Counted from the first letter of the stretch, positions 44,906-51,936 are shown. The stretch: 64,000 nucleotides of DNA from Anaeromyxobacteraceae bacterium (GCA_047602405.1 JASGHJ010000002.1:1280001-1344000), one strand, 5' to 3'. Numbers and translations are program-made. The notes: a model not told the origin generated them from the letters alone.

Positions 44906-44939
44906 GTTCACCAACTGTAACTTGATTGGGCGGACGTTG
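44906..44939 (+). repeat. Left inverted repeat GTTCACCAACTGTAACTTGATTGGGCGGACGTTG
   Basis: Inner 20 bp are the exact reverse complement of 46067-46086. Confidence 0.9.
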
Positions 44940-45324
44940 CCGCGGGGGAGAAGCCGCGTTCTCGGGCCTCAGTCCGCAGGTCGAGCTGCCAGGAGCCCTC
45001 CTCCCAGCGTTTCAGCGCCTCTCCGGCCGAGAAAGCAGCGAGCCCCTTGCCCCGCGCGAGTTCCTGCAGGACGCGACGAGCCTCGGCGTGCCGATGGCGG
45101 AGCAGGAATGCGGCGGCCATCACTCGGACGTGGGGTCTCGCCGTGAACATGAGGTGAGCCAGCGCATCGCGCCCCGCGTCACCCAGCGCCCGCAGTTCCT
45201 GGAAAGCTCGGAGGGCGAGCTGCGCGTGCTGGCTGCCGGTCTTCGCGTCGCCCTTCCAGATGGCGTCGGTCTGGGCCGCGACGTTGTCGGCGAAGCTCCT
45301 GACGAGCGTTTCGATCGGCCTCAT
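44908..45324 (-). CDS. DUF2019-like protein (putative polymorphic-toxin immunity protein), orphan
   Basis: FADNVAAQTDAIWKGDAKTG...GDAGRDAL...VRVMAAAFLLRH...ALKRWEEGSWQLD matches the myxobacterial DUF2019 pattern as I recall it. True stop may be the TGA near 44969. Confidence 0.7.
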   Translation of the reverse strand: MRPIETLVRSFADNVAAQTDAIWKGDAKTGSQHAQLALRAFQELRALGDAGRDALAHLMFTARPHVRVMAAAFLLRHRHAEARRVLQELARGKGLAAFSAGEALKRWEEGSWQLDLRTEARERGFSPAATSAQSSYSW

Positions 45325-46040
45325 GGGTCAGCGTCCGCGGCAGGCGCGTGGAGGGACGTATCTGACCGAGGGTGCGGACGGAAGCTCGAGCGGCCCCTTC
45401 GGCCCGCCGCTGCCCAGGGCTCGCAGCGGGTCAGCAACCACGTGCGTGGGGAGGAGACCGCGAAAGGCCGGCCGTCCGGCGCGAGCGCGGCGGCCGTCGA
45501 GAAGCGGTCGGCGTCCGCCTCCTGGACGGGCTCTCCCCGCCGCGAGGCGTGCGAGGCGAAGTTGTCGAGTACGTAGCGGAGCGCGTTCCGGACCTCGGCT
45601 GGGGTCCGGAGCAGGTGTGCGTGGTAGCGGTCCGCGAACACCTGGCCGCGGCGCTCCATCAGCGCGTTGAGCCCCTTCGCGAGACGGCCGGCGAGGGCGC
45701 GCATGCCCTGTGCGAGGGCTCCGGCGTCGGCGGCCTCCACGATGACGTGCAGATGGTTGCCCTGGACCGACAGGTGGATCACGCGGAAGTCCTCGCGGCT
45801 CCTGACGCCCTCGAGCGCAGCGGCGATCACCCGCCACGAACGCAGGCTGCGGAGGTTCCAGACGTGCTCGCGGACGCGGAGGGTCACGTGGACGGGGGTC
45901 CATCTGCCGAATCGGAGCGTGCGCCGATGGGAGACCCCGGGGCGTTCTCCGGAAGCCTTCCGCCCGGCGCCCGCCCGCTCCCCGCCCCAGCCGTTCACGG
46001 GCGGCAGGTCGAATGCGAGCTGCGGAGGGCGGGCGGACAC
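45321..46040 (-). CDS. REP-associated tyrosine transposase-like (Y1 HUH, IS200 superfamily)
   Basis: VHVTLR, HUH motif QGNHLHVIVEA, GQVFADRYHA, catalytic Tyr in NALRYVLDN, N-terminal GGERAGAGRK. Confidence 0.85.
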   Translation of the reverse strand: MSARPPQLAFDLPPVNGWGGERAGAGRKASGERPGVSHRRTLRFGRWTPVHVTLRVREHVWNLRSLRSWRVIAAALEGVRSREDFRVIHLSVQGNHLHVIVEAADAGALAQGMRALAGRLAKGLNALMERRGQVFADRYHAHLLRTPAEVRNALRYVLDNFASHASRRGEPVQEADADRFSTAAALAPDGRPFAVSSPRTWLLTRCEPWAAAGRRGRSSFRPHPRSDTSLHAPAADADP

Positions 46041-46066
46041 GCACGGATTGTCTCACCCGGGCCTGA

Positions 46067-46100
46067 CAACGTCCGCCCAATCAAGTCACTCAAGGTGAAC
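46067..46100 (-). repeat. Right inverted repeat
   Basis: Reverse complement reads GTTCACCTTGAGTGACTTGATTGGGCGGACGTTG. Confidence 0.9.
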
Positions 46101-46135
46101 GTCGACCGTCCCGGGCGGGCCGGCCGACCCGAGGC

Positions 46136-46219
46136 CATCCTTCGACTTCGGGGTGCGCGGGCTGTCCAGGCGCCTCCGGACAGCCCGGGGCGGCGCGCCC
46201 CTACGCTCAGGATGAACGG
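46136..46219. repeat. REP-like nested palindrome (CATCCTTCGACT...CTACGCTCAGGATG)
   Basis: Nested stems CATCCT/AGGATG, GGGGTGCGC/GCGCGCCCC, CGGGCTGTCC/GGACAGCCCG. Confidence 0.6.
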
Positions 46220-46260: not shown

Positions 46261-46332
46261 CTACTCCGCCTTCTTCGACCTCGCGGACGCGGCGAGCGGG
46301 ACCGGCTCCTCGCGCGGCTCGCGGAAGGCCTC
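46261..46332 (-). repeat. Displaced duplicate of the divIVA 3' end (att-like direct repeat of 51436-51507)
   Basis: 66/72 nt identical. Both copies encode EAFREPREEPVPLAASARSKKAE-stop. Confidence 0.92.
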
Positions 46333-46344
46333 CTCCCTCTCCCC

Positions 46345-49176
46345 CTACGGCACCCCCACCGGCGACGGTCGCAGTGCCCCGCCGTCGCCGAGCTGGGAGG
46401 CCGAGTCGTCGCCCCAGGCCCACAGGGTTCCGTCGCGCCTCACCGCGAGGGTGTGCCTGCCGCCGGCGCTCACCGCGGCCCACGTGGCGTCCGTCCCGAT
46501 CTGGACGGGGGCCCTGCGCTCGGCGACGGTGCCGTCGCCGAGCTGGCCCGACGAGTTGTCGCCCCAGGCCCACAGGGTGCCGTTCGCCTTCAGCGCCACG
46601 GTGTGGCTCCACCCGGTCGACACGCCGACCCAGTCCGCGTCGGCGCCGACCTGCGCGGGGACCGTCCGCCCGGTGCGGGTGCCGTCACCGAGCTGGCCGC
46701 TGCCGTTGTAGCCCCAGGCCCAGAGCGAGCCGTCGGCGCGGAGCGCGAGCGTGTGCTTGTTCCCGGCCCACGCGGCGGCCCAGCCCGCGCCGGCGGGGAC
46801 CTGGACCGGCGCGGTGCGGGGGGCCGTCGTGCCGTCGCCGAGCTGGCCGTGCCCGTTCGCCCCGAAGGCCCAGAGCGTGCCGTCGCCCTTCACCGCGACG
46901 GTGTGCTGGTCGCCGGCGGAGGCGGACGCCCAGCTGTCCCCGGCGACCGGGCCCGGCGCCGCGCGCCGCGCGACGGCGGGGTCGCCGAGCTGTCCGGAGG
47001 CGCCGTCGCCCCAGGTCCAGAGCGTCCCGTCCGACCGGACGCCGGCGGTGTGCGCGGTGCCCGCGGACACGGCGAGCCAGGGCCCCGCGTCGATCGTGGC
47101 CGGCCCGAGCTGGAGCTCCCAGCCACCGGTGCCCACCTGGCCGAGGGCGTTCGCTCCCCAGCCGCGGAGCGCGCCGCCTCCGGTGAGCGCCGCGGAGTGG
47201 AGGCTGCCCGCGGAGACCGCGCCCCAGTCGCGCTGGTCCCCGACCTGGGCCGGCGTCCGGTGCGTCGGCAGGGGACCGAGCCCGAGCTGCCCCCGCGCGT
47301 GGTCGCCCCAGGCGTGCAGCGTGCCGTCGCGGGCCAGGCCGAGGGAGTGGAGGCCGCCGAGCGCCACGGCCGCGGCGGGCGCGCCGCCGACGAGCGTCGG
47401 TGTCGCGAGGTCCGCAGTGCCGCCCACGCCGAGCTGCCCGGAGCCGCCCGCGCCCCAGGTGAAGAGCGAGCCGTCCGCCTTGCCCGCCGCCGAGTGCGTC
47501 GCGCCCGCGGCGACAGTCGCCCAGGGGCCACCGGGGACGGACACGGGCCGCGTCCGATCGAGCGAGGACCCGTCGCCGAGCTGGCCGTTGCCGTTCCAGC
47601 CCCACGCCCAGAGCGAGCCGTCGGCGGCGAGCGCGAGCGTGTGGAACCCGCCCGCTGCGACGGCGACGAAGCGCGTGCCGGTCGCCCTCTGGACCGGCGC
47701 GCTCCGGTCGTCGAAGCTCGCGTCTCCGACCTGGCCGTAGAAGTTGAAGCCCCAGACCCAGAGCGAGCCGTCGGCCCTCAGCGCCGCGGAGTGCCCGTCC
47801 CCGGCGGAGACGGCGGTCCAGCTCGCGTCGGTCCCGATCCGGACCGGCGTGCTCCGCGCGGCGGTGCTGCCGTCGCCGAGCTGTCCCGACTCGTTCGCGC
47901 CCCAGGCCCACAGCGTGCCGTCGGCCTTCAGCGCGAGCGAGTGGGAGCCGCCGGCCGCGACCGCGGCCCACTCCCCGGCGGCCCCGACCCGCACCGGTGC
48001 CGGCCGCTCCACCGCGGCCCCGTCCCCGAGCTGGCCCGCGACCCCCTCGCCGAAGGCGAGGAGAGAGCCGTCCGCCCGCAGCGCGAGCGTGTGCGCCCGG
48101 CCCGCGGACACGTGCGACCAGCCGTTCGAGGTCCCCACCTGCCGGGGCGCGTCGGCGCGCGCGGTCGCGCCGAGGCCGAGCTGGCCGCTCGCGCCGTCTC
48201 CCCAGGTCCACAGGGTCCCGTCCGGCCGGATCCCGGCGGAGTGCCGCGCTCCCGCGGCGACCTCGAGCCAGGCGCCGCGGCAGTTCACCACGACGTCCTC
48301 GACGCCTCCGGCGGGCACGAGGCCGGCGCCGGCGGCCACCTCGCACCGCTGGGCGGGCTGCTCCGGCTGCGCGACGACGGTCACCGCGAAGGCCGCGCCC
48401 ACGTCCCGCCCCAGGGCGAACGCGAAGGTCGTCGCTCCCGCGGCGACGGCGAGGTCGGGCAGGCCAGGACAGGCGAGCACGAGCCCGCTCCCGGCGAGGC
48501 CGACCACCGTCCCGCCCACGGTCGCGGTCTCGGGCGGGAGGAACTCGACCGAGGTCCTCGCGACGACCTCGCCGCCCACCTCCGCGCTGACCTCCTGCGT
48601 CCCGGCCACCGGGGACGTGATCCGCGCCGAGGCCTCGCCGGCCGCGTCGGTAGCGCCCGAGGGCGGATTGAGCGTGGCCCCGCCGGAGGCCGCGAACGTC
48701 ACGCGGGTGCCGGGGGCGACGGGGGCGCCACCGGCGTCGAGGACCGTCGCGACGAGCAGCGCCCCCGCGCCGCCCGTCCGCGCCACGCCGGGGATCGCCG
48801 CCAGCACGGAGGTGAGCGGGGAGGGGGCGCCGTGGGCCGGGAGGACCTCGACGTCGACCTCGCGGGAGGCGGACCCGGCGGCGTTGCTCGCGGTGAGCGT
48901 GTAGCGGGTGGTGACGGCGGGGCGCACCACGGTTCCGGCGCCGGAGACGGCGCCGGGCCCGGGCGCGATCGTGACCACGTCGGCCCCGCGCACCGACCAC
49001 GCGAGCGCGGCGGCCTCGCCGGCGCGGATCAGCGCGGGCGTGGCCCTGAACGCCTCGATGACGGGCGGAGCCCCGGGCTCCTGCCCGCCGCCGCCGCAGG
49101 CGGCGAGCCACAGCGCGAGCCCCGCGATCCCGAGCGCCGCCCGGGCCGGGGAGGCGATCGCCGTCCGCGCGCGCAC
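46345..49176 (-). CDS. RCC1-repeat lipoprotein with Ig-like domains
   Basis: Lipobox LAAC. Ig/Big_1-like segments. 13 repeats of VxAGxxHxxxxxxDGxLWxWGxxxxGQLG counted by eye. Confidence 0.9.
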   Translation of the reverse strand: MRARTAIASPARAALGIAGLALWLAACGGGGQEPGAPPVIEAFRATPALIRAGEAAALAWSVRGADVVTIAPGPGAVSGAGTVVRPAVTTRYTLTASNAAGSASREVDVEVLPAHGAPSPLTSVLAAIPGVARTGGAGALLVATVLDAGGAPVAPGTRVTFAASGGATLNPPSGATDAAGEASARITSPVAGTQEVSAEVGGEVVARTSVEFLPPETATVGGTVVGLAGSGLVLACPGLPDLAVAAGATTFAFALGRDVGAAFAVTVVAQPEQPAQRCEVAAGAGLVPAGGVEDVVVNCRGAWLEVAAGARHSAGIRPDGTLWTWGDGASGQLGLGATARADAPRQVGTSNGWSHVSAGRAHTLALRADGSLLAFGEGVAGQLGDGAAVERPAPVRVGAAGEWAAVAAGGSHSLALKADGTLWAWGANESGQLGDGSTAARSTPVRIGTDASWTAVSAGDGHSAALRADGSLWVWGFNFYGQVGDASFDDRSAPVQRATGTRFVAVAAGGFHTLALAADGSLWAWGWNGNGQLGDGSSLDRTRPVSVPGGPWATVAAGATHSAAGKADGSLFTWGAGGSGQLGVGGTADLATPTLVGGAPAAAVALGGLHSLGLARDGTLHAWGDHARGQLGLGPLPTHRTPAQVGDQRDWGAVSAGSLHSAALTGGGALRGWGANALGQVGTGGWELQLGPATIDAGPWLAVSAGTAHTAGVRSDGTLWTWGDGASGQLGDPAVARRAAPGPVAGDSWASASAGDQHTVAVKGDGTLWAFGANGHGQLGDGTTAPRTAPVQVPAGAGWAAAWAGNKHTLALRADGSLWAWGYNGSGQLGDGTRTGRTVPAQVGADADWVGVSTGWSHTVALKANGTLWAWGDNSSGQLGDGTVAERRAPVQIGTDATWAAVSAGGRHTLAVRRDGTLWAWGDDSASQLGDGGALRPSPVGVP

Positions 49177-49184
49177 GCCCCCGC

Positions 49185-51203
49185 CTAGTGGCAGCCGAAG
49201 CAGGCCGACCGGAACACCGGCCGCACGTCGAGGGACCCGTTCCGGTGGAGCGTCGCGCAGGGTGTGCGGCCGCCCGGGTCGCAGGTCGTGGCCGTGCTCA
49301 GGGTCGTGTCGAGGCTCGGGCCGGTGGGCGTCTCGATGCCGAGCGCGTCCGGGTGGCAGAGCTGGCAGCGGTTCCCGCCCGCCGCCCCGTGCCAGCCGCT
49401 GTGCCAGGTGTAGCGTCCGCCGCCCGGCGCGGTGAGGTCGTGGCAGGCCGTGCAGCCGCCGGAGGGCGGCGCGTACCAGGACGGCGTCGTGGCCCCGCCG
49501 CCGTAGGCGGCCGTGGCGAGCACCGGCTCGCCGTCGCCGCCCGGGAAGGCGTAGGTGTACTCGCCGGGCGGGACGGAGTGGCAGGCGACGTTCGAGCAGG
49601 TCTTCGCGATGGGATCGAACGTCGGCGCCGGCAGCGAGGCGCCGGTCGCGGGGCCGGCGGGGTCGAACCCGACCACGCCGATGACGGCGACGTGGCAGGC
49701 GGCGCAGCCGATGTTCCGGGCGAGGTGGAGCGGGTGGGCGCCCGCGGGCAGCGCGGCCACGGTGTGCGGGTCGTGGCAGCCGGTGCACCCGCCCGTCGCG
49801 TCGACGGAGAAGGGGTGACCGGTCACGACCCCGGCCTGGACGTGGCAGCCGACGCAGCTCGCGGCACCCGAGCGCGCCGCGTGGGCGTCGCCGTGGCAGC
49901 CCGCGCAGTTGCCGGGGGTGCCGGGGCCGGACGCGTGGACGGACGCGGCGAAGTCGCTGACGATCTGCGGGGCCGTGGCGTGGCAGCCCGCGCAGAAGCT
50001 CGAGCCGACCGGGTTGCCGCGGGTGGCGAACTTCCAGGTGAAGTCGGTGCTGCTGACGGTGCCGGCCGAGACGTCCCCCGGGTGTCCACCCGCGTTGGCG
50101 CCGACGTGGCACGCGAAGCACATGACGTAGCGGGCCGCGTGGTCGGAGGCGGACCAGTTCGCGAAGACCTGGGTGCTCGCCCCGACGCCGACCGCGGAGT
50201 GACAGCTCTCGCACTGGGTCTGGGCGACGCCCGCCGGGTTCGAGGTCACGATCACGGTGGTGTTGGAGAACGAGCCGCCCGGCTGGACGGTCAGCGTGAA
50301 GGTGTAGGTGCCCTCCGTCGCAGGCGCGACGAAGGTGGTCGCCGCGGCGCCCGGCGGATACAGCGCGACCGGCGCCGGGGTCGAGTTGACCTGCGCCCAG
50401 GCGTAGGAGCTCACGGGCGGCGTCGTCGCGAGGGTGCCGCTGCCGTCCAGGGTGACGAGGGCGCCCGGCCGGACCACCTGGCCGGCGCCGGCCTGCGCGG
50501 TCGGATTGCCCGCGAAGCTCGCGAGCACCTGGATGTCGGAGGTCTGGACGGCGGCGGTCACCTTCACGCTGGCGTTCGCGGCCCAGGGGCCCGTGCATGC
50601 GACGCCGTTGCAGGTGAAGACGGTGGAGCCCGTGACCTGGATGGCCGTGACCTTCCAGCCCGAGATCGGCTGGAACGTCACGGAGGCGGAGTTCCCGTAG
50701 TAGTAGAACGAGGCCGGGGCAGCCGAGACGGAGCCGCCCGGCCCCGCGGTCGGGGTGAGCTTGTACTGCACGGGGGTGAAGCTCGCGGTGATGGCGACCG
50801 TGGCGTTCGCCACCGTGGCCGCCGGGGCAGACCCCGACCACGTCGCGCCGCCCGAGGCGACCGTGACGTTGTTCACCTTCACGTACGAGATCACGTAGCC
50901 GGCGTTCGCGGTCACGGAGACCGGGATCGTGTCGAGGTTGAAGCCGCTCCTCGTCACCGTGCCGCTCGTGCTGGTCTGCCCGGTCATGACAGGCGTCGTC
51001 ATCGAGCCGCCACCGGACATCGCGCGCGCAGAGATCCAGTACGTGTAGCTCGTGACCGCCCCGGAGCTCTGGCCCTGGCCACCCGGCCGGGTGTCGCCCA
51101 CGTCGCAGCCCGCCAGCGCGGCCGCGAGCGCCAGGGTCGCGACGACCCCTGCGCTCCGGCGTCCACTCCGGACGCGGCGAAGACCTCTCGGCTCGATCAT
51201 CAT
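49185..51203 (-). CDS. Multiheme c-type cytochrome lipoprotein (CxxxxCH/CxxCH type)
   Basis: Lipobox LAGC. N-terminal beta-sandwich/PKD-like repeats. 10 CxxCH plus one CSNVACH. Confidence 0.9.
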   Translation of the reverse strand: MMIEPRGLRRVRSGRRSAGVVATLALAAALAGCDVGDTRPGGQGQSSGAVTSYTYWISARAMSGGGSMTTPVMTGQTSTSGTVTRSGFNLDTIPVSVTANAGYVISYVKVNNVTVASGGATWSGSAPAATVANATVAITASFTPVQYKLTPTAGPGGSVSAAPASFYYYGNSASVTFQPISGWKVTAIQVTGSTVFTCNGVACTGPWAANASVKVTAAVQTSDIQVLASFAGNPTAQAGAGQVVRPGALVTLDGSGTLATTPPVSSYAWAQVNSTPAPVALYPPGAAATTFVAPATEGTYTFTLTVQPGGSFSNTTVIVTSNPAGVAQTQCESCHSAVGVGASTQVFANWSASDHAARYVMCFACHVGANAGGHPGDVSAGTVSSTDFTWKFATRGNPVGSSFCAGCHATAPQIVSDFAASVHASGPGTPGNCAGCHGDAHAARSGAASCVGCHVQAGVVTGHPFSVDATGGCTGCHDPHTVAALPAGAHPLHLARNIGCAACHVAVIGVVGFDPAGPATGASLPAPTFDPIAKTCSNVACHSVPPGEYTYAFPGGDGEPVLATAAYGGGATTPSWYAPPSGGCTACHDLTAPGGGRYTWHSGWHGAAGGNRCQLCHPDALGIETPTGPSLDTTLSTATTCDPGGRTPCATLHRNGSLDVRPVFRSACFGCH

Positions 51204-51435
51204 CCCCCCCTGCACCGCAGGTCGACCCACACCTGCCAGCGCCGGACCAACGGGGGAGGCGCGGATCGCGGGCGATCCGGAGGGCTGGCCGGGCAGCGCT
51301 GGGGCATAAGCCCCAGCGGGCCGGCCGGTGGGGCATATCACGCACCCACAGTTCACTGACCGTGAGTCAGACGGCGGGTGTCAGGAACGGACGGTGATTC
51401 ACGTGCGGTGATGGGTCCCGGGCGGCGCCGGGGCG

Positions 51436-51936
51436 CTACTCCGCCTTCTTCGATCGGGCGGAGGCGGCGAGCGGCACGGGCTCCTCGCGCGGCTCGCGGA
51501 AGGCCTCGAGCAGCTTGAGGTGGCTCTCGACGATCATGCGGATGTTGCTCTCGAGCTGGACCCGCTGGCGCTTCAGCTCGTTGATGTCGTCGACGATCCG
51601 GAGGAACCGGCCGTGGGCGCCCTGGACGATCTTCTCCGCCTGGAGCTCGGCGTCGGCGAGGCGGATCTCGGTCTCCTTGCGGGCGGAGTCCTTGATGTCC
51701 TCGGAGGCCTTCTGCGCGGTGACGAGCGTCTCCTGGAGGATGCGCTCCTTCTCGCGGAAGGTGGCGATGTCCTCGGCCTTGCGCTGGTTGTCCTCGCGCA
51801 GGGAGGTGTTCTCCTTCACGAGCGCCTCGAACTCGGTGGCGATCATGGCGAGGAAGGCCTCGACCTCCTCCCGCGCGTAGCCGCGGAAGGCCCGGGGGAA
51901 CTGCTTCTGGGTGATGTCGAGGGGGGTGACGTTCAT
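51436..51936 (-). CDS. divIVA: DivIVA domain protein
   Basis: MNVTPLDITQKQF...FRGY..EEVEAFL followed by coiled coil. Confidence 0.92.
   Translation of the reverse strand: MNVTPLDITQKQFPRAFRGYAREEVEAFLAMIATEFEALVKENTSLREDNQRKAEDIATFREKERILQETLVTAQKASEDIKDSARKETEIRLADAELQAEKIVQGAHGRFLRIVDDINELKRQRVQLESNIRMIVESHLKLLEAFREPREEPVPLAASARSKKAE

What the first reader, a model, noticed from the sequence alone, without database searches (positions are those of the whole stretch)
46261..51507. Integrase-less island inserted into divIVA that restores the gene with a synonymously recoded 3' end
Seen: the last 72 nt of divIVA (51436-51507) recur at 46261-46332. All 6 differences are synonymous (CCC/CCG, GTG/GTC, GCC/GCG twice, CGA/AGG), so both copies encode the same 23 residues plus stop. 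The gene-proximal 29 bp are identical. Between the copies lie only a multiheme cytochrome and an RCC1 lipoprotein, whose stop is 12 bp from the displaced copy. Known: elements that integrate into coding genes carry a replacement 3' end. Inference: a circular cassette entered through the 29-bp core, by a trans-acting recombinase or by single-crossover recombination with a related donor. Purely synonymous divergence implies both tails were under selection as divIVA ends. I do not know divIVA as a described integration site.
Basis: partly seen in the sequence, partly recalled or inferred. Interest (0 to 1): 0.85.

Follow-up and report, generated by a model that had tools for sequence, protein, structure and literature searches.

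The report
Integrase-free insert with duplicated divIVA end
A 5.2-kb, two-gene piece of DNA sits at the end of the cell-division gene divIVA, between a new copy of the gene's last 24 codons and the pushed-aside original; it likely came from a sister bacterium by ordinary recombination, a known and here one-off kind of event.

Summary
A sister genome (G010, about 93% identical) has the empty site, and its tail and downstream bases side with the distal copy, so that copy is the original end and the expressed end came with the insert. The 'recoding' and the 29-bp 'core' are not att-site signatures: sister-species divIVA pairs without any insert show the same pattern. None of 111 other genomes examined has a divIVA tail duplication, phage, plasmid and viral searches found no tail match, and the genome's non-Xer integrases lie near tRNA genes. 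Best reading (0.6): capture of sister-lineage chromosome by one homologous crossover in divIVA plus one illegitimate join. A trans-acting or lost integrase is the main rival (0.25). The anatomy fits the published class 'insertion with long target duplication' and e14 at icd. The scan noted the same anatomy on other DNA before (nucS, smc, and once at divIVA with a shorter repeat; unchecked). Real, but ordinary in kind.

The parts
51436..51936 (-). divIVA, 166 aa, intact
   Evidence: Pfam PF05103 E 5.9e-38; 96.9% amino-acid identity to G010
51436..51507 (-). Expressed divIVA tail (23 codons + stop), inferred to have come with the insert
   Evidence: Agrees with G010 at only 2 of 6 informative sites; bases after the stop do not match G010 beyond 2 nt
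51479..51507 (-). 29-nt block identical in both copies (second copy 46304-46332) and in G010; not diagnostic of an att core
   Evidence: control pairs
46333..51507 (.). Inserted DNA, 5175 nt (one repeat copy counted), absent from G010
   Evidence: Colinear blastn blocks end at 46332 and resume at 51434
51204..51435 (-). 232-nt spacer upstream of the cytochrome; no homologue found in the genome or in the loci held at that time
49185..51203 (-). Multiheme cytochrome c, 672 aa, 10 CxxCH, PKD-like domain; lipoprotein-like N-terminus judged by eye
   Evidence: Pfam PF22352, PF14522 above cut-off; motif count; C-terminal part 57% identical to a paralogue at G000 C2:737112
46345..49176 (-). Big_1 + RCC1-repeat protein, 943 aa, about 12 repeats, ends at a natural repeat end; lipoprotein-like N-terminus judged by eye
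   Evidence: Pfam PF00415, PF13540, PF25390, PF02369
46333..46344 (-). 12-nt purine-rich spacer; its end is the one non-homologous junction of the event
46261..46332 (-). Displaced original divIVA tail, not joined to any upstream divIVA sequence
   Evidence: Agrees with G010 at 4 of 6 informative sites and over the 9 nt after the stop
46137..46213 (-). REP-like palindromic repeat downstream of the displaced tail (outside the insert; label recalled)
   Evidence: Many short matches across the genome
45321..46040 (-). RAYT-like Y1 transposase gene, outside the insert, also present at the G010 empty site
   Evidence: Pfam PF01797 20.2 bits, below the cut-off of 23; 76.7% amino-acid identity to G010

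Best explanation
The 5.2-kb cytochrome/RCC1 block is an insertion that carries its own copy of divIVA's last 24 codons, and it was likely captured from the chromosome of a sister lineage by host recombination, without an integrase. Shown: insertion, empty site, which tail is original, no recombinase inside. Inferred: in the donor the two genes sat directly behind divIVA, a spot that holds variable cargo in many relatives. One end of the incoming fragment recombined by homology within divIVA. The other end, 12 nt after the RCC1 stop, was joined illegitimately to position -72 of divIVA, either by first closing the fragment into a circle that then crossed over once, or as a homology-anchored illegitimate join. 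The result is a whole gene with the donor's tail, then the cargo, then the old tail. The differences are synonymous because both tails were working divIVA ends in separate lineages until the event, and the old copy has not yet decayed.
For: Empty site in G010: divIVA-RAYT-polA. The distal copy sides with G010. The tail peptide EAFREPREEPVPLAASARSKK(A/S)E was seen only in G000 and G010 among the 30 loci, so the donor was close kin. The 5 of 14 synonymous codon changes equal what sister pairs show (3-5 of 14-15), and those pairs also keep codons 144-152 almost unchanged. The divIVA-polA gap is over 700 nt in 9 of 27 genus genomes where both genes were seen, without tail duplication; the ORFs called in the 12 long gaps inspected looked like ordinary cargo by eye. 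No duplication in 31 other genus genomes, 80 further genomes of the class or 16 metagenome divIVA loci. No tail match in phages, plasmids or viral contigs. Five non-Xer tyrosine recombinase loci lie at or within 12 kb of tRNA genes, and no large serine recombinase was found. Only 12 nt separate the cargo from the repeat. Cargo GC3 is 0.96-0.97, host-like though in the lower quartile. comEC, dprA and Ku are present. Published models give this outcome without an integrase (PMC2935791, PMC5361080, PMC2853133; passages read).
Against: No donor was found: the cargo has no close relative (best 45-57% over parts) and was never seen behind divIVA elsewhere. 29 identical bases lie at the roughly 30-bp threshold for RecA quoted in PMC2884548, so the circle version is inefficient. 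Homology-facilitated illegitimate recombination is rare (PMC5361080) and, from recall, usually deletes recipient DNA instead of duplicating it. 0 of 23 other clean indels between G000 and G010 show a flanking repeat, so the outcome is exceptional here too. The crossover position cannot be located with one outgroup. The empty site has an imperfect 8-bp inverted repeat around the junction (5% background), weakly in favour of a site-specific enzyme.
Confidence: 0.6

Rival explanations
1. A site-specific element of the e14/phage 21 type entered at the 29-bp block, and its integrase either acts in trans or has since been deleted.
For: Same geometry as e14 at icd (PMC6379469, passages). Sharp left border. 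Imperfect inverted repeat of 8-bp arms (7 of 8) around a 10-bp spacer at the empty site, seen at 79 of 1500 matched control positions. The genome has 7 tyrosine recombinase loci and 4 resolvase matches.
Against: No integrase remnant; both cargo genes are whole and fill the insert to within 12 nt. 0 of 111 genomes and 0 of 16 metagenome loci show an element at divIVA. No tail match in 50,697 phage and 72,556 plasmid records or in the viral contigs. The non-Xer integrases lie near tRNA genes. The identical block is equally conserved in insert-free pairs.
Confidence: 0.25
2. The neighbouring RAYT-like nuclease nicked single-stranded DNA near its REP-like repeat and so triggered or carried out the insertion.
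For: The junction is about 120 nt from a REP-like repeat and 290 nt from the RAYT-like gene, which is also at the empty site. That gene is only 77% identical to G010's against 93% for the flanks, a sign of other exchange here.
Against: No REP-like sequence was seen inside the insert or at the junction. A 72-nt diverged duplication is not a known RAYT product (recall). G010 and G001 have the gene in this interval with no duplication.
Confidence: 0.06
3. Assembly chimera of two strains.
For: The genome shows frameshifts typical of long-read assemblies (for example a second flagellin). No reads could be examined (one search listed none).
Against: The junction after the RCC1 stop shares no sequence with divIVA upstream of -72, so there is no overlap for a mis-join. 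Both flanks are colinear with G010.
Confidence: 0.05
4. Local duplication of the tail inside this lineage, followed by drift and later gain of cargo.
For: Both G000 copies share the Ala22 codon where G010 has Ser.
Against: A silent copy drifting freely would give six synonymous changes out of six with p about 6e-4.
Confidence: 0.04

Closest known systems
[quoted passage not shown]
   Same: Insert under 20 kb, unique duplicated target over 30 bp, empty site in a relative, no other mobile genes; most published cases are in naturally competent species, and competence genes are present here.
   Different: Cargo is a cytochrome and an RCC1 protein, not a restriction-modification system. The repeat is a whole coding 3' end and is 92% identical, against 44/46 to 49/49 in their Table 2.
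e14 (and phage 21) at icd of E. coli (PMC6379469 and PMC12540744, passages read; Hill 1989 and Wang 1997 not seen)
   Same: The incoming DNA supplies a replacement 3' end of a protein gene and leaves the old end (163 bp for icd) downstream.
   Different: No integrase or phage genes, no recurrence at the site, no attP found.
Rhs C-terminal displacement (Jackson 2009, PMC2935791) and T6SS effector-immunity displacement by homology-facilitated illegitimate recombination (Kirchberger 2017, PMC5361080); passages read
   Same: Integrase-free entry by homology to a gene's 3' part; the old end is shunted downstream; limited to close kin.
   Different: There the tips are non-homologous and arrays build up. 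Here the tip encodes the same peptide on a housekeeping gene and occurs once. Both published mechanisms are themselves proposed models.

Membership tests
Insertion with long target duplication | Duplicated target longer than 30 bp, unique in the genome | tested here: met
   72-74 nt, two copies only
Insertion with long target duplication | Single-copy target (empty site) in a related genome | tested here: met
   G010
Insertion with long target duplication | Insert under 20 kb with no other mobile element | tested here: met
   5.2 kb, two genes
Insertion with long target duplication | Cargo of restriction-modification genes (criterion of the RM survey, not of the anatomy) | tested here: not met
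   Pfam: cytochrome c and RCC1/Big_1. It is filed under the anatomy only, not under RM mobile units.
Integrase-mediated island or prophage (e14 type) | Replacement 3' end with displaced original end | tested here: met
Integrase-mediated island or prophage (e14 type) | Integrase encoded next to an att site | tested here: not met
   No PF00589, PF07508 or PF00239 match in the window
Integrase-mediated island or prophage (e14 type) | Recurrent use of the same attB by independent elements | tested here: not met
   0 of 31 genus, 0 of 80 class genomes, 0 of 16 metagenome loci within the stretches read; only one genome of the immediate clade was available
Integrase-mediated island or prophage (e14 type) | Dyad symmetry around the crossover | tested here: inconclusive
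   8-bp arms, 7 of 8, 10-bp spacer; 5% background
Integrase-mediated island or prophage (e14 type) | Excised circle and re-formed attB | not testable with these tools
   No sequencing run listed
Homology-anchored capture (HFIR or Rhs-type circle) | Donor is close kin with homology on one side only | tested here: met
   Clade-specific tail peptide, sister-level divergence, non-homologous second junction
Homology-anchored capture (HFIR or Rhs-type circle) | Donor allele with the cargo behind divIVA, and microhomology at the join | tested here: inconclusive
   No donor found
Homology-anchored capture (HFIR or Rhs-type circle) | RecA dependence | not testable with these tools
   Needs an experiment

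The most novel reading that the evidence does not exclude
The insert is one instance of a widespread, unnamed class of integrase-free 'gene-tail cassettes': cargo hitched to the last codons of a housekeeping gene, which pops out as a circle by recombination between the two tails and re-enters sister lineages at the same gene without harming it. This would extend Rhs-type C-terminal displacement to core genes and explain the many similar cases the scan has noted at nucS, smc, rps4e and once more at divIVA.
Probability: 0.2. Interest if true: 0.6.

Novelty: new member of a known kind. Interest (0 to 1): 0.27.

Why it matters
As a single locus it is a clean, recent snapshot of how an accessory cytochrome operon entered an Anaeromyxobacter-like genome without breaking a core gene. 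It also carries a caution: a short identical block plus synonymous-only differences is what two sister alleles look like, and is no proof of an att site. It would matter more if such cassettes proved to excise and spread by host recombination alone, because island finders that need an integrase would miss them.

Tried and rejected
Clade-specific tail pattern in metagenome contigs: 0 hits. Broader pattern: 18 loci, 16 divIVA, none duplicated, most short and two near-identical to genomes already held. Viral contigs: 0. Six extra pattern hits in genus genomes were chance matches in other genes. Genome-wide scan of 5194 called genes for duplicated 3' or 5' ends: the other long hits were paralogues, internal repeats or REP-like repeats, and the flagellin hit is a second flagellin gene. 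A 28-nt match in G007 lies 12.7 kb away, beyond polA, and was set aside as chance. A tail-duplication scan of 186 held loci gave no second clear case in the part of the output shown; the middle of that output was cut. The higher divergence of the expressed tail against the gene body (Fisher p 0.006) was rejected as evidence for the crossover position, because insert-free pairs show it too. Cytochrome relatives in named genomes were distant, mostly 23-39%. No sequencing run was listed; that is no evidence either way. Literature: two searches for divIVA as an integration site listed no such paper by title or abstract start (2 of 2 and 20 of 51 listed). Searches returned 0. The primary HFIR and phage 21 papers were not held, so what I say of them rests on citing papers or recall. 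No supplements were read; tables of island target genes in supplements could list divIVA.

Full report
Observation. The two 72-nt segments are as described: same 23 residues and stop, 6 differences in 5 codons, all synonymous, first 29 nt identical. The repeat extends 2 nt past the stop and the offset is 5175 nt. The 29-mer has exactly two matches in the genome at up to 3 mismatches. Six of six changes being synonymous has p about 6e-4 under random placement. Between the copies lie a 672-aa, 10-heme cytochrome c and a 943-aa Big_1/RCC1 protein. No tyrosine, large serine or resolvase family match falls in the window. The names polA, XerC/XerD, RAYT and REP are my labels from sequence and context, not from a call; the Y1_Tnp and DUF2019 Pfam hits are below their cut-offs.

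Empty site and polarity. The nearest relative, G010, is colinear at about 93% on both sides and lacks exactly the insert: divIVA is followed by the RAYT-like gene and polA. At the 6 sites where the two G000 copies differ, G010 agrees with the distal copy at 4 and with the expressed copy at 2. At a seventh site both G000 copies differ from G010. The 9 nt after G010's stop match those after the distal copy. So the distal copy is the original end, and the expressed end arrived with the cargo.

Is the 29-bp block an att core? I compared divIVA in close pairs that have no insert. In the four closest pairs from different genomes (three of them among the same three genomes, so not independent), codons 144-152 had 0, 0, 0 and 1 synonymous changes. 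The last 14-15 codons had 3-5, and the gene body 5-11 of about 140. The two G000 tails differ at 5 of 14. An identical block followed by a diverged tail is thus the normal picture for two sister alleles of this gene. The tail peptide was seen only in G000 and G010 among 30 loci, so the donor belonged to this clade. The crossover may lie in the 29 nt or anywhere upstream. One feature favours a site-specific enzyme: the empty site has 8-bp imperfect inverted arms around a 10-bp spacer at the junction, a pattern found at 79 of 1500 control positions.

Is divIVA a recurrent site? Not in what I read. Of 36 other genus genomes, 33 had a divIVA match and 31 were examined: none has the duplication. 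Of the 27 with polA in view, 18 have a gap of at most 300 nt and 9 a gap over 700 nt; the window, as positive control, was detected. In 80 further genomes of the class, picked from the listed rows of 279 matches, 69 with at least 8 kb downstream, none has it. Islands longer than about 19 kb, or broken by contig ends, would be missed, and only one genome of the immediate clade was available. Sixteen metagenome divIVA loci were negative, though only 8 reach polA. Phage, plasmid and viral collections gave no tail match. Twelve long gaps inspected held assorted genes without a tail repeat longer than 15 nt. The divIVA-polA junction is a variable cargo spot, usually without duplication.

Is there a helper? 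The genome has 9 PF00589 matches at 7 loci. Two look like XerC and XerD. The other five lie at, or within 1 kb (four) or 12 kb (one) of, tRNA genes. A genome-wide scan found no second gene with a displaced 3' end. In 450 kb of G010 aligned to G000 there were 29 gaps of at least 300 nt. Leaving out this locus and 5 replacements, 0 of 23 clean indels had a flanking repeat. Small accessory indels are common between these two genomes, and the duplication is the exception. comEC, dprA and Ku are present, which makes DNA uptake and end joining plausible but does not show them.

Cargo. Both genes have scattered relatives in the genus at other loci: 14 of 36 genomes for the RCC1 N-terminal part and 5 of 36 for the cytochrome, at about 36-59% identity over parts. 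In the five loci inspected they are not paired. GC3 is 0.96-0.97 against a genome median of 0.98. No donor configuration was found.

Mechanism. Most likely (0.6), a fragment of a sister lineage's chromosome, with the two genes behind divIVA, entered by one homologous crossover in divIVA and one illegitimate join at -72, directly or through a circle. This explains the kin-specific tail, the synonymous-only differences, the 12-nt spacer and the lack of recurrence. Its weak points are the missing donor, the short perfect homology (about 30 bp is the RecA threshold quoted in PMC2884548) and the rarity of such joins (PMC5361080). A lost or trans-acting integrase gets 0.25, RAYT involvement 0.06, assembly chimera 0.05, local duplication 0.04.

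Known kinds. Furuta et al. 2010 (PMC2853133, passages) define insertion with long target duplication: over 30 bp, under 20 kb, no other mobile element, mostly in competent species. This locus meets those anatomical criteria but has no restriction-modification cargo. e14 at icd gives the same geometry with an integrase (PMC6379469, passages; PMC12540744, passages). Rhs tip displacement and T6SS module displacement are proposed integrase-free routes that keep the old end downstream (PMC2935791; PMC5361080; passages). PMC3784515 (passages) concerns large transformation-induced duplications and served only as a source of references. Two searches listed no paper on divIVA as an integration site; subscription journals and supplements were not covered. 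The scan's earlier notes list 8 similar integrase-free cases in other genomes and one at divIVA with a 49-bp repeat. I did not check them, and they are not independent support.

Verdict. Real, recent, one-off insertion with a duplicated gene end; new member of a known kind; interest 0.27. The bolder reading, a general class of self-renewing gene-tail cassettes moved by host recombination, is not excluded (0.2; interest 0.6 if true).

Noticed in passing
window 45321-46213 (-): RAYT-like Y1 transposase gene with a REP-like repeat, just downstream of the displaced tail. Present at the G010 empty site but only 77% identical against 93% for the flanks, suggesting allele exchange; also in this interval in G001.
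   Followed up: partly
window 44908-45324 (-): Small DUF2019-like gene (below Pfam cut-off), GC3 0.81, absent from G010: a second small insertion between polA and the RAYT-like gene.
   Followed up: partly
window 46333-46344: The 12-nt spacer is four codons long, so the displaced tail is in frame with the RCC1 gene behind its TAG stop; it is purine-rich like a ribosome-binding site, as if a next donor gene was cut off. One-in-three chance for the frame.
   Followed up: no
window 51270-51345: Palindromic and repeated GGGGCATA motifs upstream of the cytochrome, possibly a regulator site (self-match).
   Followed up: no
G000 C2:1361254-1365150: Flagellin gene whose last 176 nt recur 3066 nt downstream at 94%; the second copy belongs to a second flagellin gene with a one-base frame break, possibly a sequencing error.
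   Followed up: partly
L097 (G013) and L045 (G018), between divIVA and polA: 1.2-2.0 kb without called genes; in G013 an array of 97-98% identical repeats of about 130-250 nt.
   Followed up: no
G000 C2:915085-921017: Small tRNA-Arg-linked element with a tyrosine integrase and a resolvase; four more integrase loci lie near tRNA genes.
   Followed up: no
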